IMG/VR virus record: IMGVR_UViG_3300021426_000005
Source: a virus
Lineage: Duplodnaviria > Caudoviricetes
Length of the DNA: 64,000 bases
Strand: one strand, 5' to 3'
The notes below the pieces were generated by a model. That model did no database searches and had not been told where the DNA came from. It worked only from the letters and a program-made list of their open reading frames with translations. Below, piece after piece: positions 47,055 through 63,495 of the stretch (positions within the stretch are counted from its first letter, which is position 1; the number at the start of each line of letters is the position of its first letter). A program made the position numbers and the translations under genes.

Positions 47055-47771
47055 TCAGATAAATATCAGACTGTCATCATAGAGAATTGAAGCCGCTACA
47101 TCCCCAACGACACCGTCATTTATAGCAGTGATGAGCTTACCCTTGCGTGTTGCGTTGGGGAACACCTGCTGAATCTCATCCATATAATCAGCAGTCTTTC
47201 TGTTGAGCTGATATCCAGATTTTGTTTTCCCCTCATTGCTCTTACCTGTACCCTCATATACAGTTATGTATATTTTTCCACCAGGCTTTACAATCTTTCT
47301 CATGTTTTCAAGAACACCAAGTCTATTCTCAGGTTCTTTTATAACATTGAGAACATTTGAACAGGTAGCAGTATCAGCCCCACCGTGTTCTCTTACAAGG
47401 TTGATGACTTCTCTGTTATGCTTCTTAGAGCGGTTGAATGGGTCAAGTACCATATTGATAACATCGTACTGTGTCAAATATTCTGCCACATTGTCAAACC
47501 GACCGCCACCGTAATCCACATTGACAGTTCCAGGTTCAAAGGTCACAAGATGAAATAATGCAGGAAGATTCTTAGCATTGATAGATGTATTTTCAGAAGT
47601 AAACTCCTGATCTATCTCCTTGATGGAATCCCACACATCTTCATACACATCATGTTCACCAGTATATTCCTCATAAGGATCTTCTTCTCTGGCACTATAT
47701 ATCTTACGTTCGGGATAACAAGCTCTTGCAGAAGAAACGCTGTGTTTTCTACTTCTAACTGTAATTTTCAT
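47055..47771 (-). CDS. class I SAM-dependent methyltransferase with basic leader
   Basis: VDYGGGRFD, LDPFN, ADTATCSNVLNVI. Confidence 0.75.
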   Translation of the reverse strand: MKITVRSRKHSVSSARACYPERKIYSAREEDPYEEYTGEHDVYEDVWDSIKEIDQEFTSENTSINAKNLPALFHLVTFEPGTVNVDYGGGRFDNVAEYLTQYDVINMVLDPFNRSKKHNREVINLVREHGGADTATCSNVLNVIKEPENRLGVLENMRKIVKPGGKIYITVYEGTGKSNEGKTKSGYQLNRKTADYMDEIQQVFPNATRKGKLITAINDGVVGDVAASILYDDSLIFI

Positions 47772-47852
47772 AGCAATTTCACCTCAAAAAATAAAAAATC
47801 GGTAATAGAATTACTCTCTATTACCGATATATAAGGTTATTTTGCATTGTAA

Positions 47853-48410
47853 TTAGCGGTCTAATGGTAATCCATAGCGTTGTAACTGTACATTCCACCG
47901 ACCTATTCCATTACCATCTGAGGTTTCCTGCAAGGTATTAAGCCACTGCCTGCTCCAATTCCAGCTATCAGCTACATCAAAACCAGGATAATTGTTTAAG
48001 ACCCACAGCCACTTATGATGGAATATATACTCTGAATGTCCGGTCTTGATTGTTCCGTCAGGTTTCACTGTAATATAGTCTCCGACCTTGGGCTCTCTTG
48101 CAGTATCAAAATCAGGCGATTCCTGAAATGATACATCACCGGTTTTAGGGGAATACCGTATGCAGTTATATTCATAGTCTGGATATTCTTCTGATAGCAC
48201 TTGTTCTGCATATTCTAAAATATCAAGAGGAATTACATCTTCGGCATAATCCCTATGGAAATATATATCTCCGCCGATTTCTTTACCCACACCGTATTTT
48301 GAACTTCGTTTTATAGGTGAGCCTTTATATGTTTTAAGGGTAGATCCTACTTCAGTCTGCTTATCATTATACTCCTGCGGAGTAAGTGCAGCTCTTATAT
48401 AACGTTTCAT
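47853..48410 (-). CDS. MKRYIRA-leader protein resembling the accessory domain of phosphorothioation-associated methyltransferases
   Basis: VSFQESPDFDTAREP...IFHHKWLWV. Confidence 0.5.
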   Translation of the reverse strand: MKRYIRAALTPQEYNDKQTEVGSTLKTYKGSPIKRSSKYGVGKEIGGDIYFHRDYAEDVIPLDILEYAEQVLSEEYPDYEYNCIRYSPKTGDVSFQESPDFDTAREPKVGDYITVKPDGTIKTGHSEYIFHHKWLWVLNNYPGFDVADSWNWSRQWLNTLQETSDGNGIGRWNVQLQRYGLPLDR

Positions 48411-48447
48411 TCATACTACTCCTCGCCATGCGTGATGTGAGCCTACA

Positions 48448-48879
48448 TCAATGTGAGATTTCTTCAAGAGTAAGCGCTTCATTCTTTACCACATCTTTCT
48501 TTGATTGGATATATGCTTCGATGTGCTGGGTGATTATTTCTTCCAGATCAATACCGTTTTTATCAATTATGGCCTTGGTAGTAGTTAGCAGACTATCAGT
48601 AACATTATTGATCACTGTACGGAGCACATCAGCTTGAGTTTCCTTATTCCAGGCATCATTCTCCTTCAGTACCGCTACCGTGGTCTGCTCACAGTGATCT
48701 ACACAAGTAGCAACGGTAGTTGTTATGTCAGAAATAACTGCCTTGATGTTCTCATTATCGGTTTTAGACTTCAGCCATGAAGCCAGAGCTGGAAGTAGCA
48801 CTGTAGTGATCACAGCAGCTAATATGGTAAATACCAATTCAATTATGGATTTAATTACATATTCATTCATAATAATCAC
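48448..48879 (-). CDS. holin-like protein (LL-H type)
   Basis: N-terminal TM, V...EQT, IEAYI motifs. Confidence 0.55.
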   Translation of the reverse strand: MIIMNEYVIKSIIELVFTILAAVITTVLLPALASWLKSKTDNENIKAVISDITTTVATCVDHCEQTTVAVLKENDAWNKETQADVLRTVINNVTDSLLTTTKAIIDKNGIDLEEIITQHIEAYIQSKKDVVKNEALTLEEISH

Positions 48880-49358
48880 TTCTCCGGATCGTATTCAGAA
48901 AAATAAGTATTCATAAGGTCCCTCACAAGAACATTGTTGTGGTGTGATGCCTTATCTATCGTATCATTGAAATAGAGCTTTCCTTGGCTATTGAAACCAC
49001 AAAGATGATATTCTCGGTATAGGATTATCAGCTGTTTCAGTTCTTCACTGTAATCTTCATTTCCGGCTTCAATAGCAAGCTGAATCCGTTTCGATTTCTC
49101 AAGGATCTGGGTCTGTAAACCTGTCCGCTGCGCTGATGATAACTTAGTCAATTGTTTTGTTATATCATCAATTGCGGCTTTTGTTTCAGATATGGTATCC
49201 TTAGTTTCGGCAGTTGTCTGCATTACGTCCTTGATGTACTTTTTGCCGGGATTGATTTTCTCCCAATTATTCAGAACTGCGACTAAAACGGCCGAAATCA
49301 GCGGTGCGATTACCGATATTAAAGCAAGCATAGTTTCTTTATTCATCGAAATCATCAT
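48876..49358 (-). CDS. membrane-anchored coiled-coil protein (holin-adjacent)
   Basis: N-terminal TM; LY.EYH..GFN motif. Confidence 0.5.
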   Translation of the reverse strand: MMISMNKETMLALISVIAPLISAVLVAVLNNWEKINPGKKYIKDVMQTTAETKDTISETKAAIDDITKQLTKLSSAQRTGLQTQILEKSKRIQLAIEAGNEDYSEELKQLIILYREYHLCGFNSQGKLYFNDTIDKASHHNNVLVRDLMNTYFSEYDPEK

Positions 49359-49695
49359 CCTTTACGGACTTTATCAGCCATTTTAGGTACTGGTCGGTTT
49401 CTTTATCGCAAAGAGGACAGATACCGGTGATTTTTTCGACTTCCTGATCTGATTCAACCAATGCTGAAATAAACACTCCGTGACAGGAATCGCATTCCGC
49501 TATGAAGTGGTTAGCGATATTGTTATCAAGTTCGATGTCTATATCATCTTCTTCAACATCATCAATGGTGTCCTGGATGTCCTCAACAGAATCCGATATA
49601 TCATCTATAGTATCCACAATATCGTAATCCTCTTCATCAGCAGCTACAATTCTTGTAGATGATTTTATGGGCTTCCTATTCTTACTCAGCTTCAT
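49339..49695 (-). CDS. acidic Zn-ribbon protein with basic leader (RKPIKSSTRIVAA)
   Basis: D/E-rich segment, CDSC...CPLC. Confidence 0.65.
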   Translation of the reverse strand: MKLSKNRKPIKSSTRIVAADEEDYDIVDTIDDISDSVEDIQDTIDDVEEDDIDIELDNNIANHFIAECDSCHGVFISALVESDQEVEKITGICPLCDKETDQYLKWLIKSVKDDDFDE

Positions 49696-49830
49696 GATGT
49701 TCAGCTCCTTACATAAAAATAACGGTAGCAGATGTTATTCTACTACCGTTATATAAGGTTAAACATACTTCTTATGTAAAGCCCCTTATGGTACAAGTAT
49801 AATACACATAGGGGCTGTTGCAAACTGTTT

Positions 49831-51004
49831 TTATTTGCTAAGAATTCTATTAACTTCTTTCTCAAGTTCGTCAATGGAATATACTTGTTTAGAGCGATTT
49901 CCAGCCACATTCCTCACGATTACGGTACCGTCTTCTCTGATAAATACCTGCGCAGATGTCCACTTTTTAGGGTCAGATCGTAATAGATAGTTCTTACCGT
50001 CCATAGTCCAGGCTTCTTTAACATCGTAGGGACTAGATTCCACCCAATCTACAGCAACATCATAAGTGAGTTCATTTGTAGGGGCGACATAATTAGGATT
50101 ATTGATTCTGCGCTTGATAACTTTAGCGTTATAGCCATTGTCGATGTAGTCCCTAACATCTTGTTTTGCCAGCTTCAAGGATTCTGAAGATGTGTCATCA
50201 TATACAGCTATATCTTCCCAACCATAGCCAGGAACATATTCCTGTGAAACATACACTTCTATCTTTTTAGCATTTCGAGCGGATTTAATATACCGTTTCA
50301 TTGTAGTATTCACTCCTATAGAAAATATTAGTAACACCCTTATTACTGGAGTGTTGCTCTTTTCAGTTCTTCGAGGTTGTCAATAACGTGTAAGGAAGTA
50401 ATTCAGGCAACCTGTAACGATTTCATCATAAGTATGGGTGAAATCAAAGTCGTCCTGAATGTACTCCCCACCATCTTTCACAAGCCATATGTCATACCTA
50501 TCATCAGGATCTGGTGGGATAAGTTTGAATCTTGCATAGACATCACCATCATCAAATCTGATGATGACCTCTCTATCTGAAACCTCAACACCGTAGCCGA
50601 GGTCCTTAATTTTTTGGTACTGCCAAGAATCTTCCCAATTCTCACGGGAAGATTTGATGTATCTTTTCATAGAATTACCCCTTTCCCGCTCAAAGTTTTG
50701 CTACCGTAGCATCAGCAGAATTGCCGACATAGAGTTCGCCAGTATCTTTGTCTTCGATAAGGATACCAGAACGATAACCATTGGTATCATTCCAGGCAAT
50801 GCCTATGATCTCATAGTTCATTTCCATAGGATCAAATGTACCAGCCATATCTTCTGCAATACCGGAAGCTACCATATCCCTGAGTTCTTTTCTGGTGAAT
50901 AGGTACTTACCGGGGAATCTGCTTGTCTGCTTGCCGTATTTCTTTCCGTTAGGTGCTTTCCATGCGGAAGCCATTACGGAAGTGGATTTGATATATCGTT
51001 TCAT
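49831..51004 (-). CDS. three unrelated proteins each starting MKRYIKS (49831..50301, 50380..50670, 50690..51004)
   Basis: Identical 7-aa starts followed by unrelated bodies. Confidence 0.75.
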
Positions 51005-51903
51005 CAGTATTCCTCCTCCCCAGAAATTGCATTGATAGCACGCTCTACAACATCATTTATCCGATCATTGTTATCTATATCTGTAAGATATTCCGGTACC
51101 ACAACATTAGCCCATTCTTCTGGATCAACATCAATACCGCGATCATCACATACACTTAATACCATATTCTGCATTAAGGCATCAAGGTTTTCGTATAATA
51201 GTATGCTGTAATATTCAGACTGACACATCTGAAGCATCCTAACCATATCAGTTGTACCGTCAAGTAAGCCATTAACTGCCGCTTCTTCATATGCACCGCT
51301 TTCCCAAATTTCATATGCAGATTTGAACAAACTATCATAATAAATATCTACTTCACTATTTGCTTGTTCTGCAATTGCATCTCCAATATATGCGTCACTA
51401 TCGGAGTAGTTATATACAAACCCGTCTAGGCAGTTTTCTGGGGCAAGATGTTCATACGGATAAAAGTCATATTCTGCGTTTAGTACGTTATTGGTTGCAG
51501 CCATGATAGTCTTCCTTCCTTTACGCCTTGTGGAAGCCTGTACATCGTCTTCGTACATGATTTCGTCCTCGTAGTAGTCTCTCAGTTCTTCGGCAATAGC
51601 CTTCCTCGTAGCAGGACTGAGCATTGCAACTGATCCTCTACCAGAGCCGAATTCTTTGTCGTATCTTCTTACACCTTCGTCTGCAACATACTGCCAGAGC
51701 TTAACCGCAAGATCACGGTCATACTTGCCCTTCTTGTACTTACGCTTCAGATTTTCGATTGCCGGAGTGATACGCTCACGGTAAAGATCTCCATCATTTG
51801 TGATAGTAAGCACCAGCTCATCTACATCTTCTCTGGAAACCTGAGATCTGTCTACGGCAGCCGCCTTGACCGGTCTGTTATAAGCACGGTTTATCTTTTT
51901 CAT
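51004..51903 (-). CDS. two-domain polyprotein-like ORF; C-terminal domain Ocr (T7 gp0.3)-like
   Basis: RPVKAA leader, VQASTRRKGRKTIMAA linker; DAIAEQANSEVDIYY...GLLDGTTDMVRMLQ...E. Confidence 0.65.
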   Translation of the reverse strand: MKKINRAYNRPVKAAAVDRSQVSREDVDELVLTITNDGDLYRERITPAIENLKRKYKKGKYDRDLAVKLWQYVADEGVRRYDKEFGSGRGSVAMLSPATRKAIAEELRDYYEDEIMYEDDVQASTRRKGRKTIMAATNNVLNAEYDFYPYEHLAPENCLDGFVYNYSDSDAYIGDAIAEQANSEVDIYYDSLFKSAYEIWESGAYEEAAVNGLLDGTTDMVRMLQMCQSEYYSILLYENLDALMQNMVLSVCDDRGIDVDPEEWANVVVPEYLTDIDNNDRINDVVERAINAISGEEEY

Positions 51904-52216
51904 AAGTAAGTTCCTCCTTAATAAAGTGGTTGTGTTATAGTTACCTATAACACTATATAAGGTTACAAGCCGTGTTTTTTGCATTTCACGATGTAGATAT
52001 CGGTCGCAAAGTTATATCATTTTTGCACATATCGCACTTGAATGTGTGGGGCTTTCTACCTAAAAGGTATAGGTTTTCTGTATGATATTCCAGACCGCAA
52101 TGAGGGCATTTGTACACCGGATCATTAGAATCATCACTGACACATATTGTTTCTTTTGCATCAGGATCTATCGGCCAGTCTAACGGATTATAGAAATGTA
52201 ACATATCACCAGCCCC

Positions 52217-53101
52217 TTACAGTATTGAAAGCCGGTCCGCAGTCTGAAGCATAGTAACCATGGGATATTTTTCATTAGCATCCATGAGATCATGTTTCTG
52301 AGCATCAGATACATCATACTCATTCATGTGCCAGCGGATAGCTAAAGCCTGCTCTGTTGTCAGCTTGAATATCTTCATAGCAATGAACATGGAAGTTACA
52401 CCATGACCGAATGGAAGTGAAGAACCTTTGTACTTATAAGCAAGCTGCTGTTCCCATACACCAGTTTCTTCATTCTTGACGTTCTTCTTGTAGGGCTGGT
52501 AGAAATCAATCTTACACCAATCATGGCAGATAGCAGCCAGAATAGCCTGAGCCAGATCAACTTCTGCATAAGTATCTATGGTGCTGAGTTCGATTATCTT
52601 ATCTACAACCTTGAGGGTGTGTTTTGCAAGACCACCTGGGCAGCAGTCATGATATATGGTACTTGCCGGAGCTATAAAGAAATCGGTACTTTCAAGCCAC
52701 TGAATAGCTCTTGTTACATACTTCTTAGCTGTATCATCATTGCCATGGGTGGCATAACAGCAAGCTATGATATAGTTTTCCAGCTCCTCCTTGATAAGTT
52801 TGATCTGCTCCTGATTAGGATCATCTTTTGCTAACAGCTCCTGGCTAACCCTACCACCGATGTAAACTTCCGGTCTGAACATGGTAAACCGAGTGAAGTT
52901 CTCCATAACCTCCGGAATATCATCAGCGCCGAATGTTTCATCAGCAGGTATGAAATGAGGCTCATGCTGGTCATCAGGGACTATAGTACCTACTTTAGAA
53001 TTATCGGAAGTCATCGTTACGGTCCAGGAATCTGATATTCCTATACGCTTGAACCAGTATGCGAATGATTCCTTAAAAGACATTGTATTGATGTTAAACA
53101 T
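52217..53101 (-). CDS. HD-domain phosphohydrolase
   Basis: APAS..YH....GGLAKHT, AICHDWCK, GHG, IRWHM, ADR. Confidence 0.85.
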   Translation of the reverse strand: MFNINTMSFKESFAYWFKRIGISDSWTVTMTSDNSKVGTIVPDDQHEPHFIPADETFGADDIPEVMENFTRFTMFRPEVYIGGRVSQELLAKDDPNQEQIKLIKEELENYIIACCYATHGNDDTAKKYVTRAIQWLESTDFFIAPASTIYHDCCPGGLAKHTLKVVDKIIELSTIDTYAEVDLAQAILAAICHDWCKIDFYQPYKKNVKNEETGVWEQQLAYKYKGSSLPFGHGVTSMFIAMKIFKLTTEQALAIRWHMNEYDVSDAQKHDLMDANEKYPMVTMLQTADRLSIL

Positions 53102-53254
53102 AAAATCAACTCCTTCATATACATTAACGATTTATATAAACTAGCAATACCGTACTTGTATCTTCACTATAATTATACAATACCGTACATAGTGTGTCAA
53201 TTGGTATAACGACCAAAAAGAAACTGCCGATATTGTTCATATCGGCAGCAAATG

Positions 53255-54391
53255 TCAATCTTCGGTATATCTTGAAGGATCATACTCAAACTTCACCAGA
53301 TCTGTGATGAATTTTCCTATTTCCTCCCACTTACCCAAGAAGTAATGTATACTATCATAGTAATCCATATCCTCTTGTTTAAGCTCTGGGAATTTCAGAT
53401 TTGGTGTGAAGTAGTAGATGCCATCATCGGGATCCTGATTGGTAGTGACCGTAATTTCTGGTAGATACTTTGCATCACTACCCTTAGCTTTTAGGGTTAT
53501 CTGCAAATCATCAGATACTTCCATATCATAGTCGTTTCTGTCAGCAGACTTCCACAGTTCAAGAAATGGTCCGTCAATCAGAGCATCAGAACTCTGAGCT
53601 GCGGTTATAGGTCTTTTTGTAATTTTCATTGTGTATCACCTCAATCAATTATAATCGGAATTCTGTTTACTACTGTGATATAGTTATCACTATATCCAGA
53701 AGCGTGTGTATAATATCTGTTATCGATCCAGTTGTTGCCGATAGCGTCATCCCAGCCATACTTTGCATATCTCAAAGCCCGCTGGAACATCTTATAAGAC
53801 GGATCGTTTATCAGCTTATCTCTCCAACGCTCTGCGGTTTTTCTGTCCTTATATACGATCAGATTATATCGTGCAGAGTAATTGTCCTGGGTCATTACAC
53901 CGAACTCAGGCTGATCTTCTTCGTAAGCAAAAGCTACATCATAGTCATTTGCTTTTATGTATCTTTTCATAATAGCACCTCACTTAAACTTAGTGTCTGT
54001 CCCAGAAATTCCAGCCAGATCCATCCGATCCAGAATTTCTTCCTCTGTTAGCTTTAGCTTCAAAAGTGGATTGTGTATCTAACCACAATGGTTCATCACA
54101 ATATACACCCCTTGATGCTAGTTTCGTAGCAACATCATATGTACTGCCAGTTTTCAATTTATACCAAGGTGAATCTAACATAGCCCAATCAGTATCTGTT
54201 ATTTTGCTAAAATAACAATTTCCGGCATCCCAATCCATACCTATGACTGCACCTATCGGAAACCTATTCAAAACAGCTTCGTATTCCTGGATGTCAGCAT
54301 AAGTAGTCTTTGAATATCCAGGAAATACAGGTAAATTGTTTAATTCCGTCAGTATACTTTCTTCTTTAGAACACCGAATATATCTTTTCAT
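53255..54391 (-). CDS. three leader-bearing hypothetical proteins (53255..53629, 53641..53970, 53990..54391)
   Basis: Starts MKITKRPITAA, MKRYIKAN, MKRYIRCS. Confidence 0.7.
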
Positions 54392-54400
54392 AACAGCACC

Positions 54401-54886
54401 TCACTTAAACATATTGTTATCCCAATCCCCGGTATAGTCAAGCATAGCCTTTCTACTGGGAATGGTTTGAATCTCATGATACTTTATTCCCCATTTGTTG
54501 ATCTTCAATACGTTCAGGGAATGTTTCTTCTTCTCTTTAATAAGATAATCGATATCCCTTATGTCAAGAATGAAAGCTCTTTGATAAGAAGCGAACAGAA
54601 CTATGATCACCCCATAAGTACCTTCTATCTTCGACTTTTTCAGAAGATTGTCATACTGATAGTCGGTTATCATTGAGAAGTCAAATCTATCGGCATAAGT
54701 GGCTTTGCTTTCGATGTAGAACATATTAGGTTTCTTATACAGCGTGAAGTCACAGATGTTCTTACTGCCTACAAATCCTGTCATTTGGTCCTTTATTCTA
54801 TCAAAAGAATACCCTTCTTCTGGTCGGTCTAACCAGGCTTCTATCTTAGCTTCTGCCTTTTTACCTAACAGATCATCTCTTACCAT
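54401..54886 (-). CDS. RecU-like Holliday junction resolvase (PD-(D/E)xK)
   Basis: GKKAE...ICDF......YIESKAT....F....I.DYQ. Confidence 0.7.
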   Translation of the reverse strand: MVRDDLLGKKAEAKIEAWLDRPEEGYSFDRIKDQMTGFVGSKNICDFTLYKKPNMFYIESKATYADRFDFSMITDYQYDNLLKKSKIEGTYGVIIVLFASYQRAFILDIRDIDYLIKEKKKHSLNVLKINKWGIKYHEIQTIPSRKAMLDYTGDWDNNMFK

Positions 54887-55038
54887 AGTTCCTATCTCCT
54901 ATATATACATTAACGACCGGACAAATAAAGAAATGGTGAGTTCCCATTGTTTAGGAACTCACCATTATATAAGGTTATTTATTACATATTGTGATGAATA
55001 GGTTTGTGGTCAACTGTCTTTGAGTCAGAGAATGATTC

Positions 55039-55554
55039 CTAAAATCGCCCCGCGCTCCAATAGCCATCTATGGCTCTTTTAGCCGCCTTTAGTGTGGAAT
55101 CGGTTTCCCACATAACTTCATCAGTTTTGGGATCTATTGTATACCACCGCTTATTTTCATAGTTATAGTGTATGTTGAATCCTCGATATTCATACAAATC
55201 TTCACCTATACGCTTGGCTGTAGGTCTTTCACCACAATAATACTTAATTGCTGCTCTGTCGGGATTCGATAACATATCAGATTCCAATAGGTATGATAAG
55301 TTATCCTTCTCTGTAAAATTGAGCCTAATAATGCCTGTAAATGGGGTAGTTGATAAAGCCTTTACAGCCTTTTTATGTATAGCTAAAAACGGACCCTCTT
55401 CATAGCCCTCTAATATAACTCGCAACGTGTCAAGACGATTCCACCTTTTTATGAACTCATCTTTGGATAAGTTGGAATATATTACATCACCGTTCTTAAA
55501 TGTATATTGGTATCTTGCGTTGGGCTTAGAATCGCTTTTTATGTAGCGCATCAT
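55039..55554 (-). CDS. hypothetical protein with MMRYIKS leader
   Basis: ORF track; ends in YEYRGF...TLKAAKRAID module. Confidence 0.65.
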   Translation of the reverse strand: MMRYIKSDSKPNARYQYTFKNGDVIYSNLSKDEFIKRWNRLDTLRVILEGYEEGPFLAIHKKAVKALSTTPFTGIIRLNFTEKDNLSYLLESDMLSNPDRAAIKYYCGERPTAKRIGEDLYEYRGFNIHYNYENKRWYTIDPKTDEVMWETDSTLKAAKRAIDGYWSAGRF

Positions 55555-55659
55555 ATGATCGCTTCCTTTCATAATGATTATACCATAACAGCAGTATATT
55601 GTCAGTAGTAAATATCAACAATATACTGCTGTTCATTTTAGTTATTAAGTTATCAGTTA

Positions 55660-56631
55660 TTATTCATATGCCTCTGCTTTGTCATTGTACTCAGCGATAA
55701 GATCATTGACGTTACGGCTGTTTATCTGGCTATCGATTGCGGAAGCATCATCAAGCACCTGATTGAAGTAGCTTTCGCCGTACTTATCATATACAGCCTT
55801 AAACTCGGGAGAAAGCTGATTTACCATGTTGCGACCAACATTGTAAAGTGTATCAGCAATATCTACAAGAGCTTTATGCTCTGAATTGATGTATCCGTCC
55901 TCTACATCAGCCCAATCCCTTAGTATCAGGAGCATACTTACAAGATCATAGGGGATTTTTCCAGAATATGCAGCCTTTATAGCTTTACAACCTGATCTTT
56001 TTCTACTACTTACTACAGCACCTTTACGTCTTGAAGATTTTACTGATTTCTTACCACATGATCCGGTAACAGACTCTTCTGATACAAGGTTATCCAGATA
56101 TTCTAAAGTCTGGTATGCAAAATCAGCAGGGGTAAAGCAAGAACTCAGGTCATCGGTTTCTTGCCATTCATCATTGAAATAATCATCAGGGTATTCACGA
56201 ATAATATCTTCTGCTGTGATAGTATCGGTAGTATCACCATTCATATACCAATTGTAAGCATCTTCATAGCAATACTCCCGGAACTCATCCCAGGTCATTA
56301 TCTTATAGCAGTTATCCATCTGGATATTAGATGCCTTTACTGGTCTTGTGGAAGCCTTAACAAAGGGATCTTTGATAGATTCCGTTCTGCCGTAGTCATC
56401 GGGATTTTCGCCGTTCTTAGTGATGAGTACATCAATGTAGTTGTTGCCGTTAGAATTGAGAAATCCTAGCAGTTCATCTTCGGTCATAGATTTGATTCCT
56501 GGACCAGCACTGCCCCAGGTTTTCCATGTATTATCTTCGTCCAGAACCCATAGGATATCGTCAGGTGCATATCCAGCTCTAATAGATCTGTGGTTAGCAT
56601 TTTTATTGATTTTCTTACAATATATCTTCAT
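55660..56631 (-). CDS. three-domain polyprotein-like ORF with basic linkers
   Basis: RSIRAG leader; FVKASTRPVKAS; VTGSCGKKSVKSSRRK...KAIKAA. Confidence 0.7.
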   Translation of the reverse strand: MKIYCKKINKNANHRSIRAGYAPDDILWVLDEDNTWKTWGSAGPGIKSMTEDELLGFLNSNGNNYIDVLITKNGENPDDYGRTESIKDPFVKASTRPVKASNIQMDNCYKIMTWDEFREYCYEDAYNWYMNGDTTDTITAEDIIREYPDDYFNDEWQETDDLSSCFTPADFAYQTLEYLDNLVSEESVTGSCGKKSVKSSRRKGAVVSSRKRSGCKAIKAAYSGKIPYDLVSMLLILRDWADVEDGYINSEHKALVDIADTLYNVGRNMVNQLSPEFKAVYDKYGESYFNQVLDDASAIDSQINSRNVNDLIAEYNDKAEAYE

Positions 56632-56648
56632 ATGCTATACCTCCAGTA

Positions 56649-58225
56649 TTAGTATACAGATAGTCCGAATGCTTCGGCTTCGTCTTCTGTCATCATATGT
56701 GTAATAGCACCAACATTAAGCCTTACCCAAAGATGTGCCGTGAATAATTCAAGTTCACCACGCTTCCAGGCTTCAAGCTCCTCCTGAGTTGGAATATCAT
56801 TGTCCGCATTTACTGTAGCATCTGTCTGCAATGAACCATCCAGAAATACATAGTCTTTGATGTCATCTGAAAAGATGAAGCTACTTTCAGCTATATCATC
56901 GATTAGGTCCTGTGCAGTCCTAAATGAATCTGCAATTGTGAAAGTCCAAGAATTGACTTGTTCGCCTTCACCCTGTTCATAGCTATCAACCATAACGTCA
57001 ACATAGCAATCAGAAGGTACATATATTCTGAGGTTGCTTATGTCAGCAGCACCCATGATGGAGCTTGCTTTTACAGACTTCTTAGACTTATTGCATTTAA
57101 TCTTCATAATCTTCATCCCCCTCATTACGACCATACCACTCCCTGAAATCATACATACGGAACATATATGCCAGTGATTCTGCAAGTTCATCTGTGGAAA
57201 GTCCCTGAATGATCTCTGCATCTACAGTTTCCTTGCCAAGATAATCACAGGCGAATTCATATGCTTCCCATGCCTCTGACTCCTCTACGACCCAGCCGTA
57301 GCTTTCTGCTGACTTGATAGGTCTTCTACATCTGGGATTCTGTGAAGCGCTTACAGCTCTGCGTTTGTTTCTTATTATCTTCATAATATCAACACTCCTT
57401 ATCTTATAATGCTTATCTTATAATGCTTGCAGCTTCAAGGAGATCCTGAAGATTATTGTATTCAGTCTTTTCTCCATAAGCATCTATAACATATCCTGAA
57501 CCTAAGTCCACATTGATGTATGCTGTATCACCCATGCCGTTATCGTAATCAAATTCATCAAGTCTACCGTTATGGGGTGTTGCACCGATAAGGGGCAGTC
57601 CAGCACAAAGCAGTTCTCCGATGTCATATTCGTCCCAAGTATAAAGATCATCACAAAGACGGTTTGCATCTTCTGCCGTGTTGACTTCATAATTGAAAGG
57701 AAGCTCATACATATTACCTGCTGGATTCCACCAGACGTAGGCTTCGTGTGTATCATCATTGTATGTACAGCCGAAACCAAGCCACATATACTTATCCCAC
57801 CAAGGTGTAGGTTCATTAGCATACTCAAAACCATTAGCCTCAAGTATTTTTATCACATTTGCATTGCTTCTGTCAGCCTCTCCCTTAATAGGGCGCTTAT
57901 TAGATTTATTCATGTAAATCTTCATATTGACACTCCTTTACAACATAAACGGTATTTCCAGAAGCCTTACTCTGAATACATCTGAAATGTCAGGTTTACC
58001 AAATTCTAAACCTTCGGTTTTGTCTATCAAGGCTTCTATCTCAGATATATCTTCGTAGTAAACTTCACCAAGGAAGCACTGACCATCCAGATCTATCTGA
58101 GCTTCTTTTACACATTCCAGAGAGTTTAGCTGCTGGACGAAATCCAGCAGCAACTCTATTTCATCTTGTGGATAATCTGTGATCAGATCCGGATCCACAA
58201 ATAACTTGAACTTATTGTATTCCAT
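56649..58225 (-). CDS. four acidic hypothetical proteins (56649..57107, 57097..57384, 57413..57925, 57938..58225); first three carry basic leaders
   Basis: KKSVKASSIMGAA; RRAVSAS...RRPIKSA; KRPIKGEA. Confidence 0.7.
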
Positions 58226-58230
58226 AAGCC

Positions 58231-60807
58231 TTAGATGTTTGTTATCGCATTGTAGATAGCCTCTGCGGCAGGCTTTGCAATACCCTTAACATACTCTTCG
58301 ATAGCTTCCATATCGTAGTTGTTAGGATCAAGATTGCTTGAATTCCAGATAAGTTCAACCTTATCGATCTCATTACCCTTTACATAGATATAGAATTCAA
58401 GTTCTCCGACTTCCTTACCACCACGGAAATCATAGTGGTAGGCATCAGGCAGAGCATATGATACAACGTCTATATCATCAGTATCGAATGTAGCACTGAT
58501 TGTATAAGTAACGCCTACATATGTGCTAGAAGCATAATACTCAAAGGTATCTTCCATGATAGTAGCGTATTCATCAACCTTAGCAAGCTCAGTTGTAGGA
58601 AGAACTTCACGCTCTGCGATTCTGTAGAGTTCATCTACCGTAGACTCAGATATTGCTTCTCCATTGGAATCGAAGCCATAACCGTAGTCTTCGTCTTCGC
58701 CATTGATAGGCTCAAGGTCTTCATAGGTAGCCGCTTCAACAGTCTTACCAGCTACACTCTTTACAGCGGCAGCCAGCTCCTCCGCATCATCATCTTCATC
58801 ACCAAGAATAGGTGTGATCTCATCGGTAGGCTGAATATACACTACATCATCTTCGGTACCGTCATAGAATGACAGTGCTTCATCTGTAACTGCACAGCCG
58901 ATACCTTCGTATCCGTCATCGTGAAGAATACCAAGGGTCATATCTGCAAGCATCTGATTGTACTCTGCTGCTGAGATATTTTCTGATGCACACTTTACCG
59001 ACTTAGCATCACTTCTTCTCACGGTAGAAGCTGTGATACCATTAGCAAGGAAACTACCTAATCCATTCTGGAAATCCGTATATGCCTTTATGCGGCTATC
59101 TTCATAGGCATCACGAATTTCAGATAGTCTTTCAAGCCATTCAGGTGTCAAATATTGATCATCAAAGTCAACCTGCGGTGCATAGATTTGTCTGTTACCA
59201 GGGTAAAGCTGAATATAGAACTCATTTCCGTTTACAGCATTCTGATTGTATATGTAGTTTACCGGATCTTCATCAAGCGGATTAGCGAGATCTGCTTCAA
59301 GCATTTCCTCATACAAGTCATGATCCATAGCATCAAGGAAAAACCAAAAATCAGTTTCAACAGCTTCGGGACTCAAACCAGCATCTACTGACCAATCATC
59401 CGGACCGTTGTACTTCACACTGTCAGTATTCAGCCAAGCACCACTACTGGGATCCTGAAGGAAAGCATCTACATATTCCAGCATATCGCTGTCTTCAAAG
59501 CCGTCGTACTCATAAGAATCATTCAGCATATCATTGACATCTTCTTCAGAAGACTCCCATGTATCTGCCTTTATAGCCTTACGTCTGATTTTCGATGTAC
59601 ACTTCACTGACTTAGTACCAGTCACCTCTTCTGTAGCAGGGAAGATCTCAAAATCGAGAATACCGTCTCCATCTTCGTAGTTATTTTCATCATCTACGAA
59701 ATCATAGTATATAAGCTCACAGAATGTATAAGCTGTCTCAGAAGCATCACCATATTCATCATCGAACAGAGGGTCGCCGAACTGATTACACCACTCCTGG
59801 AATTTCAGTCGGGTCTCATCGTCCTGACAGAGTGGAAGTATAGCATCATACATATCAGCTCCTGGCTGACCTTCATATATCTTCTCGCCGTTGAAGTACA
59901 TTACAATGTCTCCACCCTCATACCAAGCGGCAGTTACTTTAGTGCCGTTTCTTCTCTTGGTAGAAGCACCAATACCCATTGACTTCCAGACTTTATCCCT
60001 GAAATCTGCGATTTCGTTTGTTACAACGAACTCACCATCAAAATTCTCAGCATAAACGTCAGGATCAATGTCTATCATATCACCGGTCTTGAAGTAAATG
60101 ATATTAACATACAAGCCCTGCATGAGAAGTTCATGTGCATAACTTTCTACTTCTGACCATTCATCAGGTCCGAAATATCTATCTGCGTATGCACCGCTGC
60201 GATTTGAACCAAGGTATCCGGTTACTGCGAAACCGTTTTCATTCCACGAAGCCTTTACAGCCCTACGTCTTTTAGCTGACTTAGAAGCCTTAATATTGAA
60301 CTTTCTTTTATAAACAGACCCACCTATAGGGGATGCGTATTTACGTCCCTTAAAAGTGAATGTAGCCGTACCATCGAGAGCTGCTTGCTTTGCTTCTTCA
60401 GGAGTATCATAAATCTCTTTAGATATATCCCATGCAAATTCACCATTTTCAGCTTCATTCATAGATCTACGAATTCTATACCCATATGGACGTTTAACTA
60501 CCCGAAGCTGCGCCCCATCATCATCTTTGAGAACGATTTCAGCATCATTTTCACGAACAAGCTCCGCACCGGCTTTTACAGATTTCTTACCACAAGCAGA
60601 TTCAACTACTTCGTAGCCCTTCTTCTTAGCCCAGGCTATCGCACCCTTTTTACTTTTCCAATTGTTAGGGGCAGAAGTAAGAACCTGATTATCCTCTGCA
60701 TTTTTCAAACCGTAATACTCTCCGGATTGACCCTTATTGATAACATAAGGAGTGACCTTGAGGGTAGAACTGTTGGAAGAAGCAGTTACTTTGAATTTTC
60801 TCATCAT
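58231..60807 (-). CDS. seven-module polyprotein-like ORF: mostly acidic domains joined by basic [VI]x[ASC] linkers
   Basis: KVTAS; KKSVKAG; IKAS..RRRAVKAS; IGAS.KRR..KVTAA; SVKC..RRKAIKAD; ITAS..RR..SVKCAS..ISAA; VKS..KTVEAA. Confidence 0.75.
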   Translation of the reverse strand: MMRKFKVTASSNSSTLKVTPYVINKGQSGEYYGLKNAEDNQVLTSAPNNWKSKKGAIAWAKKKGYEVVESACGKKSVKAGAELVRENDAEIVLKDDDGAQLRVVKRPYGYRIRRSMNEAENGEFAWDISKEIYDTPEEAKQAALDGTATFTFKGRKYASPIGGSVYKRKFNIKASKSAKRRRAVKASWNENGFAVTGYLGSNRSGAYADRYFGPDEWSEVESYAHELLMQGLYVNIIYFKTGDMIDIDPDVYAENFDGEFVVTNEIADFRDKVWKSMGIGASTKRRNGTKVTAAWYEGGDIVMYFNGEKIYEGQPGADMYDAILPLCQDDETRLKFQEWCNQFGDPLFDDEYGDASETAYTFCELIYYDFVDDENNYEDGDGILDFEIFPATEEVTGTKSVKCTSKIRRKAIKADTWESSEEDVNDMLNDSYEYDGFEDSDMLEYVDAFLQDPSSGAWLNTDSVKYNGPDDWSVDAGLSPEAVETDFWFFLDAMDHDLYEEMLEADLANPLDEDPVNYIYNQNAVNGNEFYIQLYPGNRQIYAPQVDFDDQYLTPEWLERLSEIRDAYEDSRIKAYTDFQNGLGSFLANGITASTVRRSDAKSVKCASENISAAEYNQMLADMTLGILHDDGYEGIGCAVTDEALSFYDGTEDDVVYIQPTDEITPILGDEDDDAEELAAAVKSVAGKTVEAATYEDLEPINGEDEDYGYGFDSNGEAISESTVDELYRIAEREVLPTTELAKVDEYATIMEDTFEYYASSTYVGVTYTISATFDTDDIDVVSYALPDAYHYDFRGGKEVGELEFYIYVKGNEIDKVELIWNSSNLDPNNYDMEAIEEYVKGIAKPAAEAIYNAITNI

Positions 60808-60815
60808 TAAACACC

Positions 60816-61031
60816 TCACTCAATTATTGCATTTGAAATGCTATTGTTAATGTTTACAAGATTCTGACTAAGCTCCAAAGCTATTGATAATGCCTCTTTG
60901 CCTTTATCAGTGCTGGTCCGTCCGAGCTTTTCAAGTCCTTCGATAATGTAATCGAAATCTGCTTCCAGATCCTTTATAGCATTGTCTAAGGCTTCATTGC
61001 CCTCAGTAGCAGCTAATATCATTCGTTTCAT
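60816..61031 (-). CDS. small helical protein with MKRMILAA leader
   Basis: GGTGGTG RBS; first gene after AACCTTATATA at 61067. Confidence 0.65.
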   Translation of the reverse strand: MKRMILAATEGNEALDNAIKDLEADFDYIIEGLEKLGRTSTDKGKEALSIALELSQNLVNINNSISNAIIE

Positions 61032-61236
61032 TTTATCACCACCGAACAATATATAATCATTACTTTTATATAAGGTTATCACACTTATTCTTATATATAC
61101 TATAACGACACAGACCACATTTAATTAAAACAAAAATAGCGACCTGCTAAAATGCAAGTCGCTGTTGTATATATTGACGAATAAGGTTGTATTGCCCTAT
61201 AGGGGATTTTCTTACTGAAAAGGTAAAATGCACAAA

Positions 61237-63495
61237 TCACTTACTTCTTCCAAGTAGAAAATCAAACAGTTCAGGATTCTTTTTCAGATCCAGTTTACCG
61301 TCTACGATATAGTTTGAGATAGCGCGTTTATCTTCAAGTATCTGATATACACGTTCATCTACCGTGTCTTTGGAAAGTAAGGTGTATACCTTTAGTGGTT
61401 CTGTACTGCCTATACGATTTGCTCTGTCTTCTGCTTGTGTCTTATCAGCTGGTGTCCAGCAATCATCGTAAAAGATCACGTTGGTAGCAGCTGTAAGCGT
61501 AAGAGAAACACCCATAGCACCGATAGTACCAAGCATTATCTTGTACTCAGGGTTGTTCTGAAAGACCCTTTTATGTTTCTCTCTATCTGCTTCATTCATA
61601 GAGCCGGTATAGCAACAAGTCTTATACTTCTTCGATAAGAACTTGTATATAGTCCTTAGTGGATCTATCCAGTTTGAGAAGATAATGACCTTTTCATTTC
61701 TTTCGACCACATCATCTACTAGCTCAATGAGCCGTTTCAGCTTTGCATTGCAGGCTATATACTTGTCATCGACGACTATAGTATCATCTACCAGCTCTGG
61801 ACTTCCGTTGACCTGACGTAATCTGAGCATTGCCGTAAGCGGATTCAGTGTGCTGAGAATTTCTTCTCGCTGCTGATAGAGTTCTTCTACTATGGCTTCA
61901 TACAGCGCTTGCTGCCGGGGAGTATTTTCAACGTATTCGGTATAATATATCTTCGGAGGGAGATCAAGAACTTCTGACTTCATTCGGCGGATCATATTGC
62001 CTTGGAGCATATCTTTCAGAATAGGTATATTCTTGTAGCCCATTATTTCATGATCACCGTATCCGCCAAATATGCAGAACTCCCTTGACCACATATAATA
62101 GCTTTTGAAAGCATGACCATCTACCAGCTTCAATGGTGTGAATACATCAGTAGGCTTGTTTTTGATAGGCGTACCAGTCATGGGGATCCACTGTACAGCT
62201 TTCTCAGTTCGCTTCTTGATATCCAGTATGACCTTACCCTGAGTAGATTGTGGAGACATATTTTTGTGACATTCATCTATAGCTATCATCTGCAATTTAC
62301 CTTCGTTTATCATCTTAATGATAGCTTCCTCAAGGGTGAATATCTTTCCGACCTTAGTTCTACCAAGGGCTTCTATGTTGGTTATAAGGAAGTATGGAAG
62401 CTCAGGGGCATCTTCTTTGCCATACATATGACCGGATACAAGATCCTCTACCTTATCAGGACCTGTGGTATTGAACCTCAAGCTGCCATTGCGTTTCTTT
62501 CTTGTACCAAGAATATAGCCAATCTCCTGACCATTGGTGTGCTTTGCTATGTCTTCCTGCCAGGAATACTTAGCTGAGTTCACACAAGTAATTATGAGAC
62601 AGTGCTTGTAGTTGTAGATCTTACGCTGATACATGGCGTAGTTGAGGACTTCTAAGGTCTTACCGCAGTTGTGGACCAGAATACCATTTACAAAGAAGTT
62701 CCGGTACGGATCAGCCATAACTATATCGTATGTCAATTCACAGCACAAAGGTGTCTTACTAACTACATGAGACCATGTAGGTATCATATATTCATCAACA
62801 GTAAAGACTTCCGAATCGGTAACTAAATCAGCTAGTTCTACATAGCCATTTCTGGTAAAGAATTGATGGTCTTCCGTAGCTTTTACTTTGTACCCGTTTT
62901 CAAGTTCCAGTTCGTATACAAGTTTGTATCCACTACACTTCATGTCACGGATTCGATTTTGCTTAGTTACATTATTCACTTCATCATAGGAAGAAGTTGT
63001 AAACGTATATTGCGGATTCGACTTAAATAGCCTATATAGGGTTTCCAATGGTCTAATAATACGGTGATCATTGACGTAGAAGGTGATTGAAGCATCACCA
63101 GCTATGCAGCCCATATCATCGGCCAGTATGAAGCCATTTCTGCCCTTGCTCTTAGCGTACTTCAAGAAAGCAAGCTGGTGATCATACAGCTTGTAACCTT
63201 CTTTAACATAATGATCCACATCAGATATATCTGCATCCGGTATCAGGTTTATATCGGTAGAATCTATAGAAGCATTCTCATTTATAGCTTCTTCCGACTG
63301 GATCTGTAATGTACCTTCGTAAGCAGTACCTTTGATCTCGTTTAGAAGCCACCCAAGATGACCTTTTGGAATAGTCCAGTATTTGTTTTCTGGTACCCAT
63401 TTTCTGCCGGGTACATTTTTGACCATAGCTATGAGTTGGGGATCATATTTGAATTTCAGTATGTAGAGGTCATTTTCCTGAATAGCATAAAACAT
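61237..63495 (-). CDS. SNF2-family helicase containing a mini-intein
   Basis: LADDMG^CGKT Walker A, DECH, MTGTP, MIRR.K..VLDLP, G.SLTL, QAEDRANRIG. Confidence 0.92.
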   Translation of the reverse strand: MFYAIQENDLYILKFKYDPQLIAMVKNVPGRKWVPENKYWTIPKGHLGWLLNEIKGTAYEGTLQIQSEEAINENASIDSTDINLIPDADISDVDHYVKEGYKLYDHQLAFLKYAKSKGRNGFILADDMGCIAGDASITFYVNDHRIIRPLETLYRLFKSNPQYTFTTSSYDEVNNVTKQNRIRDMKCSGYKLVYELELENGYKVKATEDHQFFTRNGYVELADLVTDSEVFTVDEYMIPTWSHVVSKTPLCCELTYDIVMADPYRNFFVNGILVHNCGKTLEVLNYAMYQRKIYNYKHCLIITCVNSAKYSWQEDIAKHTNGQEIGYILGTRKKRNGSLRFNTTGPDKVEDLVSGHMYGKEDAPELPYFLITNIEALGRTKVGKIFTLEEAIIKMINEGKLQMIAIDECHKNMSPQSTQGKVILDIKKRTEKAVQWIPMTGTPIKNKPTDVFTPLKLVDGHAFKSYYMWSREFCIFGGYGDHEIMGYKNIPILKDMLQGNMIRRMKSEVLDLPPKIYYTEYVENTPRQQALYEAIVEELYQQREEILSTLNPLTAMLRLRQVNGSPELVDDTIVVDDKYIACNAKLKRLIELVDDVVERNEKVIIFSNWIDPLRTIYKFLSKKYKTCCYTGSMNEADREKHKRVFQNNPEYKIMLGTIGAMGVSLTLTAATNVIFYDDCWTPADKTQAEDRANRIGSTEPLKVYTLLSKDTVDERVYQILEDKRAISNYIVDGKLDLKKNPELFDFLLGRSK
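62668..63108 (-). mobile_element. mini-intein (147 aa, no homing endonuclease)
   Basis: Starts CIAGDA, block B ATEDHQF, ends YDI...NFFVNGILVHN followed by Cys +1. Confidence 0.9.

What the first reader, a model, noticed from the sequence alone, without database searches (positions are those of the whole stretch)
58231..60807. Polyprotein-like ORF: seven modules separated by paired motif-basic-motif linkers
Seen: the leader motif recurs inside the ORF, usually twice per linker around a K/R-rich spacer: VESACGKKSVKAG (~60560-60610), NIKASKSAKRRRAVKASW (~60245-60295), IGASTKRRNGTKVTAAW (~59925-59975), VTGTKSVKCTSKIRRKAIKADTW (~59560-59625), ITASTVRRSDAKSVKCASENISAA (~58960-59035), VKSVAGKTVEAA (~58725-58765). 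The modules between are roughly 60-190 aa, non-repetitive and mostly D/E-rich. Inference: a concatenated cargo precursor cut into several small proteins, with the basic spacers excised. Strong acidity fits DNA mimics or anti-CRISPR-like inhibitors. Polyproteins of this design are unusual in tailed phages.
Basis: partly seen in the sequence, partly recalled or inferred. Interest (0 to 1): 0.88.

Follow-up and report, generated by a model that had tools for sequence, protein, structure and literature searches.

The report
Protease-jointed head-cargo polyprotein of gut phage
A roughly 150-kb gut phage with a T4-type head encodes an 858-residue chain of seven swappable small domains. The domains are joined by the same short motif that marks its capsid protein, its head protease and about 15 neighbouring small genes. 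The chain is therefore probably loaded into the head and cut into separate proteins, but no cut has been measured.

Summary
The ORF (58231-60807, minus strand, 858 aa) has a basic leader and six K/R-rich linkers that carry one to three copies of [IV]-x-[A/S/C/G]. The strict form occurs 8 times against 1.4 expected, and no shuffle out of 5000 reached either the count or the pairing.

AlphaFold gives five confident domains, with pLDDT below 50 exactly at the linkers (pTM 0.28).

In 58 long relatives the modules are present, absent or reordered, and M2, M4 and M5 start right after a motif in 68 of 69 cases. M7 also exists as a stand-alone 160-190 aa gene, often with the MK-x-Y-I-K-[A/S] leader. 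A related phage shows M1 and M7 fused with the downstream leader and its ribosome-binding site still inside the ORF.

About 10 kb upstream lie a gp21-type (S77) protease-scaffold and a gp23-type capsid protein. The capsid protein's variable basic N-terminal extension is built from the same motif and ends with it just before the conserved core.

My best reading (0.6) is a T4-style capsid-targeted cargo precursor cut by the head protease. The inferred cutting rule puts a small residue at P1, not the Glu of T4, phiKZ and SPN3US.

Module functions are unknown, and the DNA-mimic idea is untested. This scan has noted Glu-type cargo polyproteins on other DNA before.

The parts
58231..60807 (-). Whole ORF, 858 aa plus stop (identical to P0002); a mosaic polyprotein
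60781..60807 (-). N-terminal basic leader (aa 1-9, net +3) ending in V-T-A before S; candidate capsid-targeting and propeptide segment
   Evidence: Relatives start M-A-I-K-K-F-K-V-x-A|S, like the capsid protein's own M-A-I-K-K start
60598..60780 (-). Module M1 (aa 10-70, 6.7 kDa, pI 9.5); also found in 133-149 aa proteins on contigs of about 45 kb
60571..60597 (-). Linker 1 (aa 71-79), the stereotyped A-C-G-K-K-S-V-K-A cassette between two motif copies
60286..60570 (-). Module M2 (aa 80-174, 10.7 kDa, pI 8.1); poorly modelled because the alignment is shallow
60250..60285 (-). Linker 2 (aa 175-186, net +6) between I-K-A|S and V-K-A|S
59965..60249 (-). Module M3 (aa 187-281, 10.8 kDa, net -11); a confident alpha/beta fold; occurs alone as the 97-aa P0067
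59929..59964 (-). Linker 3 (aa 282-293, net +4) between I-G-A|S and V-T-A|A; the P1 Ala is invariant in 31 aligned relatives
59599..59928 (-). Module M4 (aa 294-403, 12.7 kDa, net -23); in 37 of 38 relatives it starts within 3 residues of a motif
59566..59598 (-). Linker 4 (aa 404-414, net +5) between V-K-C|T and I-K-A|D
59029..59565 (-). Module M5 (aa 415-593, 20.7 kDa, net -37); modelled alone at pLDDT 81 and pTM 0.75
58969..59028 (-). Linker 5 (aa 594-613) with three motif copies (I-T-A|S, V-K-C|A, I-S-A|A)
58732..58968 (-). Module M6 (aa 614-692, 8.4 kDa, net -19), ending in the V-E-A|A junction
58234..58731 (-). Module M7 (aa 693-858, 18.8 kDa, net -29); the conserved C-terminal module. 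The family has 94 cluster representatives, many of them stand-alone genes of 156-200 aa
60816..61031 (-). 71-aa helical ORF with a leader ending I-L-A|A; first gene of the same transcription unit
61066..61077 (-). Promoter-like word AACCTTATATAA upstream of the 71-aa ORF and the polyprotein
   Evidence: (10 copies in the window against 0.88 expected)
61132..61163 (-). Terminator-like hairpin plus T-run after the SNF2 gene, which separates the unit from upstream genes
   Evidence: read directly
47055..57925 (-). Downstream cluster of about 14 further genes with the same basic leader. It includes two two-module proteins with the same type of linker (51004-51984 and 55660-56631)

Best explanation
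The ORF is a precursor polyprotein of capsid-internal (probably ejected) proteins. Its short basic N-terminal leader would direct the whole chain into the assembling prohead core, as the T4 capsid targeting sequence does. Its linkers are made of further copies of the site recognised by the phage's own gp21-type (Peptidase_S77) prohead protease, inferred here as [I/V]-x-[A/S/C/G] cut before S/A/G/N/D. When the protease is activated inside the prohead, the chain would be cut into seven small proteins of 6.7-20.7 kDa and five or six basic peptides of 7-13 residues. The design lets one address tag load seven cargo modules in equal numbers. The stereotyped linkers also let modules be swapped, added or lost.

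Shown here: the motif statistics, the beads-on-a-string fold, the module shuffling, the stand-alone forms, and the same motif in the capsid protein's N-terminal extension and in the protease-scaffold.

Inferred: that the motif is the protease's site, that the chain is packaged and cut, and that the products are ejected and act on the host. Their biochemical functions are unknown.
For: (1) The motif and its pairing are far above chance.
(2) The AF2 model has confident domains M3-M7 and pLDDT below 50 at 278-297, 393-440, 592-611 and 688-707, which are exactly the linkers; pTM is 0.28.
(3) In 58 long homologues the modules are present, absent or reordered (M3 and M4 swap), and M7 stays C-terminal.
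(4) Module starts in the relatives lie on a motif: M2 9 of 9, M4 37 of 38, M5 22 of 22, against 41 of 222 random positions. The sequence turns from basic to acidic at the motif.
(5) M7 is a true stand-alone leader-bearing gene in L009 and in many of 94 family representatives. M2 and M4 directly follow a leader in P0063 and P0061.
(6) In L008, M1 and M7 sit in one ORF joined by a retained leader plus an internal GGAGG ribosome-binding site. A module of the L008 and L009 polyproteins is a separate leader gene in this window (51004-51984).
(7) The phage has an S77 protease-scaffold and a Gp23 capsid protein about 10 kb upstream. The protease aligns with T4 gp21 at E = 1e-6 with the G-H-P and S-x-R-G motifs kept.
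(8) The capsid protein has a basic N-terminal extension of about 78 aa built from motif copies, and 120 homologues keep them. The last copy, I-[MT]-[GA], stands directly before the invariant core, while the Pfam Gp23 profile begins at residue 87.
(9) The protease-scaffold carries the motif at its N-terminus and several times in its coiled-coil tail.
(10) T4 precedent: short N-terminal capsid targeting sequences removed by gp21, diverse internal proteins, and foreign proteins packaged when fused to the tag (PMC9026906, PMC3012670).
Against: There is no proteomic, N-terminal or expression evidence that anything is cut or packaged. Every characterised S77-type protease (T4, phiKZ, SPN3US) cuts after Glu (PMC9026906, PMC10052503), so a small P1 residue would be a new specificity resting on inference alone. 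I could not align the capsid protein's N-terminus to T4 gp23 to place the T4 cut. Internal leaders could be relics of gene fusion rather than working sites. Many stand-alone M7 relatives have no leader at all, so the module does not need packaging to work. The exact promoter word of this unit does not sit directly upstream of the capsid gene. The strict four-residue motif is short and also occurs in non-cargo proteins of the window.
Confidence: 0.6

Rival explanations
1. An internal head or virion protein that keeps its domains joined. At most the N-terminal leader is removed. The internal motif-basic-motif linkers are fossil leaders left by gene fusions, retained as flexible DNA-binding or scaffold-binding tethers.
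For: Fusion with a retained leader and ribosome-binding site is directly visible in L008, so internal leaders can arise without selection for cutting. The K/R-rich spacers (net +3 to +6) would bind DNA or acidic scaffold proteins.
Against: The motif positions are conserved while the spacers and neighbouring modules vary: the P1 Ala of linker 3 is invariant in 31 sequences, and M2, M4 and M5 boundaries sit on a motif in 68 of 69 cases. A disordered linker that carries the same site as the capsid protein's extension, enclosed with the protease, would be hard to protect from cutting.
Confidence: 0.2
2. A cytoplasmic, non-packaged multi-domain protein (host take-over or anti-defence). Its leader and linker motif serves something other than head maturation, such as another protease, a localisation signal or a recombination cassette.
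For: Many M7 relatives lack any leader. M1 occurs in small proteins of unrelated phages of about 45 kb. The gene lies next to replication and repair genes (SNF2, RecU, UvrD). Linker cassettes recur almost word for word in relatives, and one 21-nt stretch is shared with ORF 55660-56631 at 95% identity (family D19).
Against: The same motif composes the capsid protein's N-terminal extension and marks the protease-scaffold. A related promoter-like word also precedes the head operon. No second protease or secretion signal was found, and the leaders are too short and polar for Sec export.
Confidence: 0.14
3. Processing is done by a host protease such as Prp, the L27-processing enzyme of Firmicutes that phage 80alpha borrows, and not by the phage protease.
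For: The likely hosts are Clostridia (names on capsid-protein relatives), which have Prp. 80alpha capsid and scaffold proteins are cut by Prp at a shared N-terminal motif (PMC5744158).
Against: Prp cuts between F and A within the conserved L27-like N-terminal sequence, and the motif here has no Phe. This phage has its own S77 protease, which bears the motif itself.
Confidence: 0.03

Closest known systems
Phage T4 internal proteins IPI, IPII, IPIII and Alt: capsid targeting sequence plus gp21 processing
   Same: The head module is T4-type (gp21-type protease, gp23-type capsid protein, gp13). Short N-terminal leaders are shared by many unrelated small proteins in a hypervariable cluster. The leader ends in the motif that also marks the capsid protein's N-terminal extension, with a hydrophobic P3 and a free P2. 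The leader even begins M-K-x-Y, as I recall the T4 tag does (from memory, not tested).
   Different: The inferred P1 is Ala, Ser, Gly or Cys instead of Glu. The leaders are basic. The cargo is mostly acidic, whereas the T4 IPs are basic. Here seven modules are strung in one gene with internal sites, whereas the T4 IPs are single-module genes. There is no sequence similarity to any T4 IP.
Giant-phage head and ejection proteins cut by gp21-like proteases (phiKZ gp175, SPN3US gp245; PMC10052503)
   Same: Many head proteins are processed at a short motif. Propeptides hold several sites and are chopped into small pieces. The protease has a C-terminal propeptide.
   Different: Those cuts follow A-x-E. 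The removed parts are long propeptides that are discarded, not a string of folded cargo domains.
Polyvalent proteins of phages and conjugative elements (Iyer et al. 2017, PMC5512222)
   Same: Large, highly variable, multi-domain proteins proposed to be packaged and delivered with the DNA and to be released into parts by proteolysis.
   Different: Polyvalent proteins are defined by recognisable effector domains and usually carry an embedded peptidase (MPTase and others). This chain has no detectable known domain or peptidase. It would be cut in trans at a linker code shared with the capsid protein.
Herpesvirus assemblin sites ((V/L)-x-A before S; own knowledge, not checked here)
   Same: Assemblin belongs to the same protease fold class as the phage prohead proteases. 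Its site, with a hydrophobic P3 and Ala at P1 before Ser, looks like the motif inferred here.
   Different: The Pfam family differs (S21 against S77), and no sequence relation was tested. The resemblance is a lead only.

Membership tests
T4-type capsid-targeted, protease-processed internal head proteins | The phage encodes a gp21-type (Peptidase_S77) prohead protease and a gp23-type capsid protein | tested here: met
   PF03420 at E = 2.6e-8 (34 bits, cut-off 27) and PF07068 at E = 8e-19. BLASTP to T4 gp21 gives E = 1e-6 with the His and Ser motifs aligned. Synteny.
T4-type capsid-targeted, protease-processed internal head proteins | A short N-terminal leader, shared by unrelated proteins, ends in the same motif that marks the capsid and scaffold proteins | tested here: met
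   16 of 96 window ORFs have the leader, and 14 of them lie in 47-61 kb. The same motif is in the capsid protein's extension and in the protease-scaffold.
T4-type capsid-targeted, protease-processed internal head proteins | Cleavage C-terminal to Glu in (L/I)-x-E | tested here: not met
   The conserved position is A, S, C or G. Glu is not conserved at or beside the junctions. The first 56 residues of the capsid protein contain no Glu. Cultured relatives (HSE3, GXN1) do have Glu-rich N-termini.
T4-type capsid-targeted, protease-processed internal head proteins | Physically present in the head, leader removed, ejected with the DNA | not testable with these tools
   Needs virion proteomics or genetics; the phage is known only from metagenome contigs.
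Polyvalent proteins (Iyer et al. 2017) | Two to 15 recognisable conflict domains, commonly with an embedded peptidase (MPTase, assemblin-like and others) | tested here: not met
   No Pfam family at E <= 1, and one insignificant PHROG match. No peptidase fold appeared among the structure matches.
Ocr-type DNA mimics (PF08684) | Match to the Ocr profile or fold | tested here: inconclusive
   No Ocr hit in this ORF, and the fold searches list no Ocr-like chain. Acidity alone is not diagnostic. A neighbouring gene gives only a sub-threshold Ocr hit (E = 0.043, 14.7 bits against a cut-off of 25).
Aha1_N / BPI-SPLUNC1 (TULIP-like) fold, for modules M7 and M5 | A long helix wrapped by a curved antiparallel sheet | tested here: inconclusive
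   M7: Z 9.3, rmsd 3.2, 113 aligned to 4n4x_A, with Aha1 at Z 7.1-7.3. M5: Z 5.3, rmsd 3.9, 123 aligned to Aha1. These values are near the background level given by the tool. The M5 and M7 profiles are not related.

The most novel reading that the evidence does not exclude
A lineage of gp21-type (S77) prohead proteases in large phages of gut Clostridia has changed its P1 preference from Glu to small residues. It uses a basic [I/V]-x-[A/S/G] code as both address tag and cutting site. On this code the phages have built a hypervariable, recombining cargo polyprotein at a fixed genome position. New members arise when neighbouring leader-bearing genes fuse, so that the downstream leader becomes a linker. 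The excised basic peptides may stay in the head as DNA counter-ions.
Probability: 0.45. Interest if true: 0.8.

Novelty: new variant of a known kind. Interest (0 to 1): 0.7.

Why it matters
If the reading holds, it extends the T4 capsid-targeting and gp21-processing paradigm to abundant uncultured gut phages, with a different and readily recognisable sequence code. That code would allow virion-delivered proteins to be predicted from sequence alone in hundreds of related contigs.

It would also show a route by which cargo repertoires evolve: gene fusion turns a leader into a cleavable linker. It would point to a change of specificity in a protease family so far known only to cut after Glu. It would supply a natural multi-cargo loading tag for phage engineering.

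The modules are a pool of small, mostly acidic proteins of unknown function. They are good candidates for first-minute host take-over or anti-defence factors.

Tried and rejected
- Pfam and PHROGs on the whole ORF gave nothing usable.
- tblastn against 50,697 GenBank phages gave no match.
- No whole genome is held for this window.
- The one IMG/VR relative (G001, 64% complete) gave no hit to PF05065 or PF04586, the HK97-type capsid and protease families I tried first.
- phmmer of the capsid protein and of the protease against PDB sequences gave no hit.
- BLASTP and hhalign of the capsid protein family against T4 gp23 did not align the N-terminal region. The position of the T4 cut could not be transferred, and the by-eye likeness of the conserved A-T-N-x-x-N-I-A-A stretch to T4's N-A-T-N-I-A-A is only a lead.
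- The first alignment, built from module fragments (A1), was misaligned by MAFFT and was discarded. Co-linear full-length relatives (A2) were used instead.
- Foldseek against PDB and BFVD gave no match at E <= 0.001.
- The ESM Atlas search by features gave nothing, and its structure rows have TM below 0.5.
- M5 against M7 by profile comparison showed no relation.
- Chance or low complexity as an explanation is rejected by the shuffles.
- The strict four-residue motif alone does not separate N-termini from the rest of the window proteome (0.26 against 0.16 per 100 aa). The signal lies in the basic context and the position.
- I did not run complex prediction, because the tool advises against enzyme-substrate pairs. 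I did not use the sequencing-run tools, because they cannot show cleavage.
Full report
**What is there.** The minus-strand ORF at 58231-60819 reads through without a stop. Its real start is the ATG at 60807, seven bases after a GAGG, which gives 858 aa. This is identical to database protein P0002, which is seen on contigs up to 152.6 kb. Motif copies of the form [I/V]-x-[A/S/C]-[small or polar] start at residues 11, 72/81, 176/188, 283/295, 405/416, 595/608/615 and 694, counting from 60819. In 5000 residue shuffles the strict [IV]-x-A-[SA] motif averaged 1.39 copies against 8 observed. Motif pairs around a net-basic spacer averaged 0.0004 (strict) and 0.011 (loose) against 2 and 5 observed. 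No shuffle reached the strict count or either pair count.

**Anatomy.** If the chain is cut after the third motif residue, it yields a 9-residue leader and seven modules of 6.7, 10.7, 10.8, 12.7, 20.7, 8.4 and 18.8 kDa. It also yields spacers of 7-13 residues, of which five are strongly basic (net +3 to +6). M3-M7 are very acidic (net -11 to -37). M1 and M2 are not (pI 9.5 and 8.1). An AlphaFold2 model was built on 31 co-linear relatives. It has confident domains for M3, M4, M5, M6 and M7, and pLDDT below 50 at residues 278-297, 393-440, 592-611 and 688-707, which are exactly the linkers. Its pTM is 0.28, as expected for beads on a string. M1 and M2 were poorly modelled because the alignment is shallow there. 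M5 modelled alone reached pLDDT 81 and pTM 0.75.

**Modules are autonomous units.** I found 58 homologues of 570-1485 aa, all from metagenomes.
- BLAST of each module shows presence, absence and reordering. M4 precedes M3 in many relatives, the reverse of the order here. M7 is almost always the C-terminal module.
- In relatives under 90% identity, the expected first residue of M2, M4 and M5 lies within a few residues of a motif in 9 of 9, 37 of 38 and 22 of 22 cases. For random positions the figure is 41 of 222.
- The sequence switches from K/R-rich to D/E-rich at the motif. The P1 Ala of linker 3 is invariant across the 31-sequence alignment.
M2 and M4 stand directly behind an N-terminal leader in P0063 and P0061. 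M3 occurs as a 97-aa protein.
- A profile search with M7 against 1.84 billion representatives found 94 proteins. About half are 156-200 aa proteins made of M7 alone. Several of these carry the M-K-x-Y-I-K-[A/S] leader and others have no leader at all.

**Related phages.** In the syntenic phage L009, M7 is a separate leader-bearing gene that follows the stop codon of another leader gene. In L008, M1 and M7 lie in one ORF, and the joint still holds the downstream gene's GGAGG ribosome-binding site and its M-K-R-Y-I-K-S leader. This looks like a fresh gene fusion in which a leader has become a linker. The polyproteins of L008 (719 aa) and L009 (1106 aa) sit at the same genome position and end in a module that, in this window, is the N-terminal domain of the separate leader gene 51004-51984. 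Modules therefore move between the polyprotein and single genes.

**What the motif is.** The window belongs to a phage contig of about 147-152 kb.
- About 10 kb upstream on the same strand lie a 456-aa Peptidase_S77 (T4 gp21-type) protease fused to a coiled-coil scaffold-like tail, a 488-aa Gp23-type major capsid protein and a gp13-like neck protein.
- The protease aligns with T4 gp21 (E = 1e-6) with the G-H-P and S-x-R-G motifs in register.
- The capsid protein begins with about 78 basic residues that hold several motif copies, while the Pfam Gp23 profile starts at residue 87.
- Across 120 homologues this N-terminal stretch is variable in length and sequence. It keeps R-R-P-[VI]-T-A|[SG], T-S-I-T-[SA]|G and [IV]-M-[AG] copies. 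It ends with I-[MT]-[GA] immediately before the invariant start of the conserved core.
- The protease-scaffold has the motif at its own N-terminus and repeatedly in its tail.
- In the window, 16 of 96 ORFs have a basic leader that ends in the motif, and 14 of these lie in 47-61 kb next to this ORF.

This is the logic of the T4 head. There, gp21 removes the gp23 propeptide, chops the scaffold, and removes 7-10-residue capsid targeting sequences from internal proteins that are otherwise unrelated (PMC9026906, PMC3012670).

**How it differs from the known proteases.** T4, phiKZ and SPN3US proteases all cut after Glu (PMC9026906 figure legend; PMC10052503). Here Glu is not conserved at the junctions, where the second motif position varies among K, T, M, Q, E, D and N. 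The capsid protein has no Glu in its first 56 residues. The nearest cultured relatives of the capsid protein (Bacillus phage HSE3 and Streptococcus phage GXN1, about 26% identity) have acidic, Glu-rich N-termini of the usual kind. A change of P1 preference in this uncultured clade is therefore implied, but it is not demonstrated.

**Most likely mechanism (inference).** The leader docks the chain to the prohead core. The activated protease then cuts every exposed linker. Seven small proteins stay with the DNA and are ejected at infection. The basic peptides leave the head or stay as counter-ions. I put this at about 0.6.
- Main rival (0.2): the chain is packaged but its internal sites are fusion relics that are not cut.
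- Second rival (0.14): the protein acts in the cytoplasm and the motif serves another purpose. This is supported by leaderless M7 relatives and by M1 in unrelated phages of about 45 kb.
- Third rival (0.03): host Prp does the cutting. This is unlikely because Prp cuts between F and A (PMC5744158).

**Function of the modules.** This remains unknown.
- Pfam, PHROGs, GenBank phages, Foldseek on PDB and BFVD, and the Atlas gave nothing significant.
- VIA-align places M7 nearest the SPLUNC1/BPI/Aha1-N fold (Z 9.3, rmsd 3.2, 113 aligned). M5 falls weakly in the same group (Z 5.3, rmsd 3.9, 123 aligned). Both values are near the tool's stated background, and they say nothing about function.
- The DNA-mimic or anti-CRISPR idea rests only on acidity.
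- A neighbouring leader gene gives a sub-threshold Ocr hit (E = 0.043), and another is a methyltransferase. Both fit a cargo cluster aimed at host defences, but neither is evidence about this ORF.

**Comparison and novelty.** The system works like T4 internal proteins with their targeting tag. It meets the testable membership features except the Glu rule, which it fails. It is not a polyvalent protein in the sense of Iyer et al., because it has no recognisable effector or peptidase domains (PMC5512222). I found no paper that describes this leader or a cargo polyprotein of this design. Earlier notes of this scan describe Glu-type cargo polyproteins in other T4-like uncultured phages. Those notes are unchecked AI notes, and I do not count them as evidence. 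I class this finding as a new variant of a known kind.

Noticed in passing
window 61237-63495 (-): The SNF2-family helicase is interrupted by an intein (Hint-type block between the helicase motifs; Pfam Intein_splicing weak, plus SNF2-rel_dom and Helicase_C). The L008 and L009 orthologues are about 150 aa shorter and list no intein.
   Followed up: partly
window 15819, 40849, 47827, 49749, 51953, 54965, 61066 (-) and L003:5622-5640: The promoter-like word AACCTTATATAA occurs 10 times in the window against 0.88 expected, mostly just upstream of gene groups, including the leader-gene clusters and a tail-fibre block. A one-base-longer variant follows a terminator hairpin upstream of the head operon.
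   Followed up: partly
window 51004-51984 (-): A two-module leader protein. Its N-terminal domain recurs as the last module of the L008 and L009 polyproteins. After a motif-basic-motif linker, its C-terminal acidic domain gives a sub-threshold Ocr hit (E = 0.043, 14.7 bits, residues 197-271).
   Followed up: partly
window 55660-56631 (-): A second two-module protein with a long K/R/S-rich linker that carries the same cassette. It shares a 21-nt stretch at 95% identity with linker 1 of the polyprotein (56038-56058 and 60574-60594).
   Followed up: partly
window 47055-47771 (-): A leader-bearing SAM-methyltransferase-like protein (Methyltransf_23, E = 1.1e-5, 25.6 bits against a cut-off of 27). 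It may be a packaged modifying enzyme.
   Followed up: no
L008:9779-10543: M1 and M7 are joined in one ORF with the downstream gene's ribosome-binding site and leader retained in frame. The gene caller reported only the 180-aa downstream part.
   Followed up: yes
proteins P0074-P0149 (contigs of about 45 kb): Module M1 (about 50 aa, 78-84% identical) is very common in 89-168 aa proteins of a different, smaller phage group. There it sits at either end of the protein behind an M-K-Y-D-P-I-M-C start. One source labels such a protein YbcV/DUF1398.
   Followed up: no
L003:7066-8436: The prohead protease is fused to a coiled-coil, scaffold-like tail of about 290 aa (PHROG 207 covers residues 22-428). 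T4 has separate gp21 and gp22.
   Followed up: partly
window 54401-54886 and 52217-53101 (-): A RecU-like resolvase and an HD-domain protein, both without leaders, are embedded in the leader-gene cluster.
   Followed up: no
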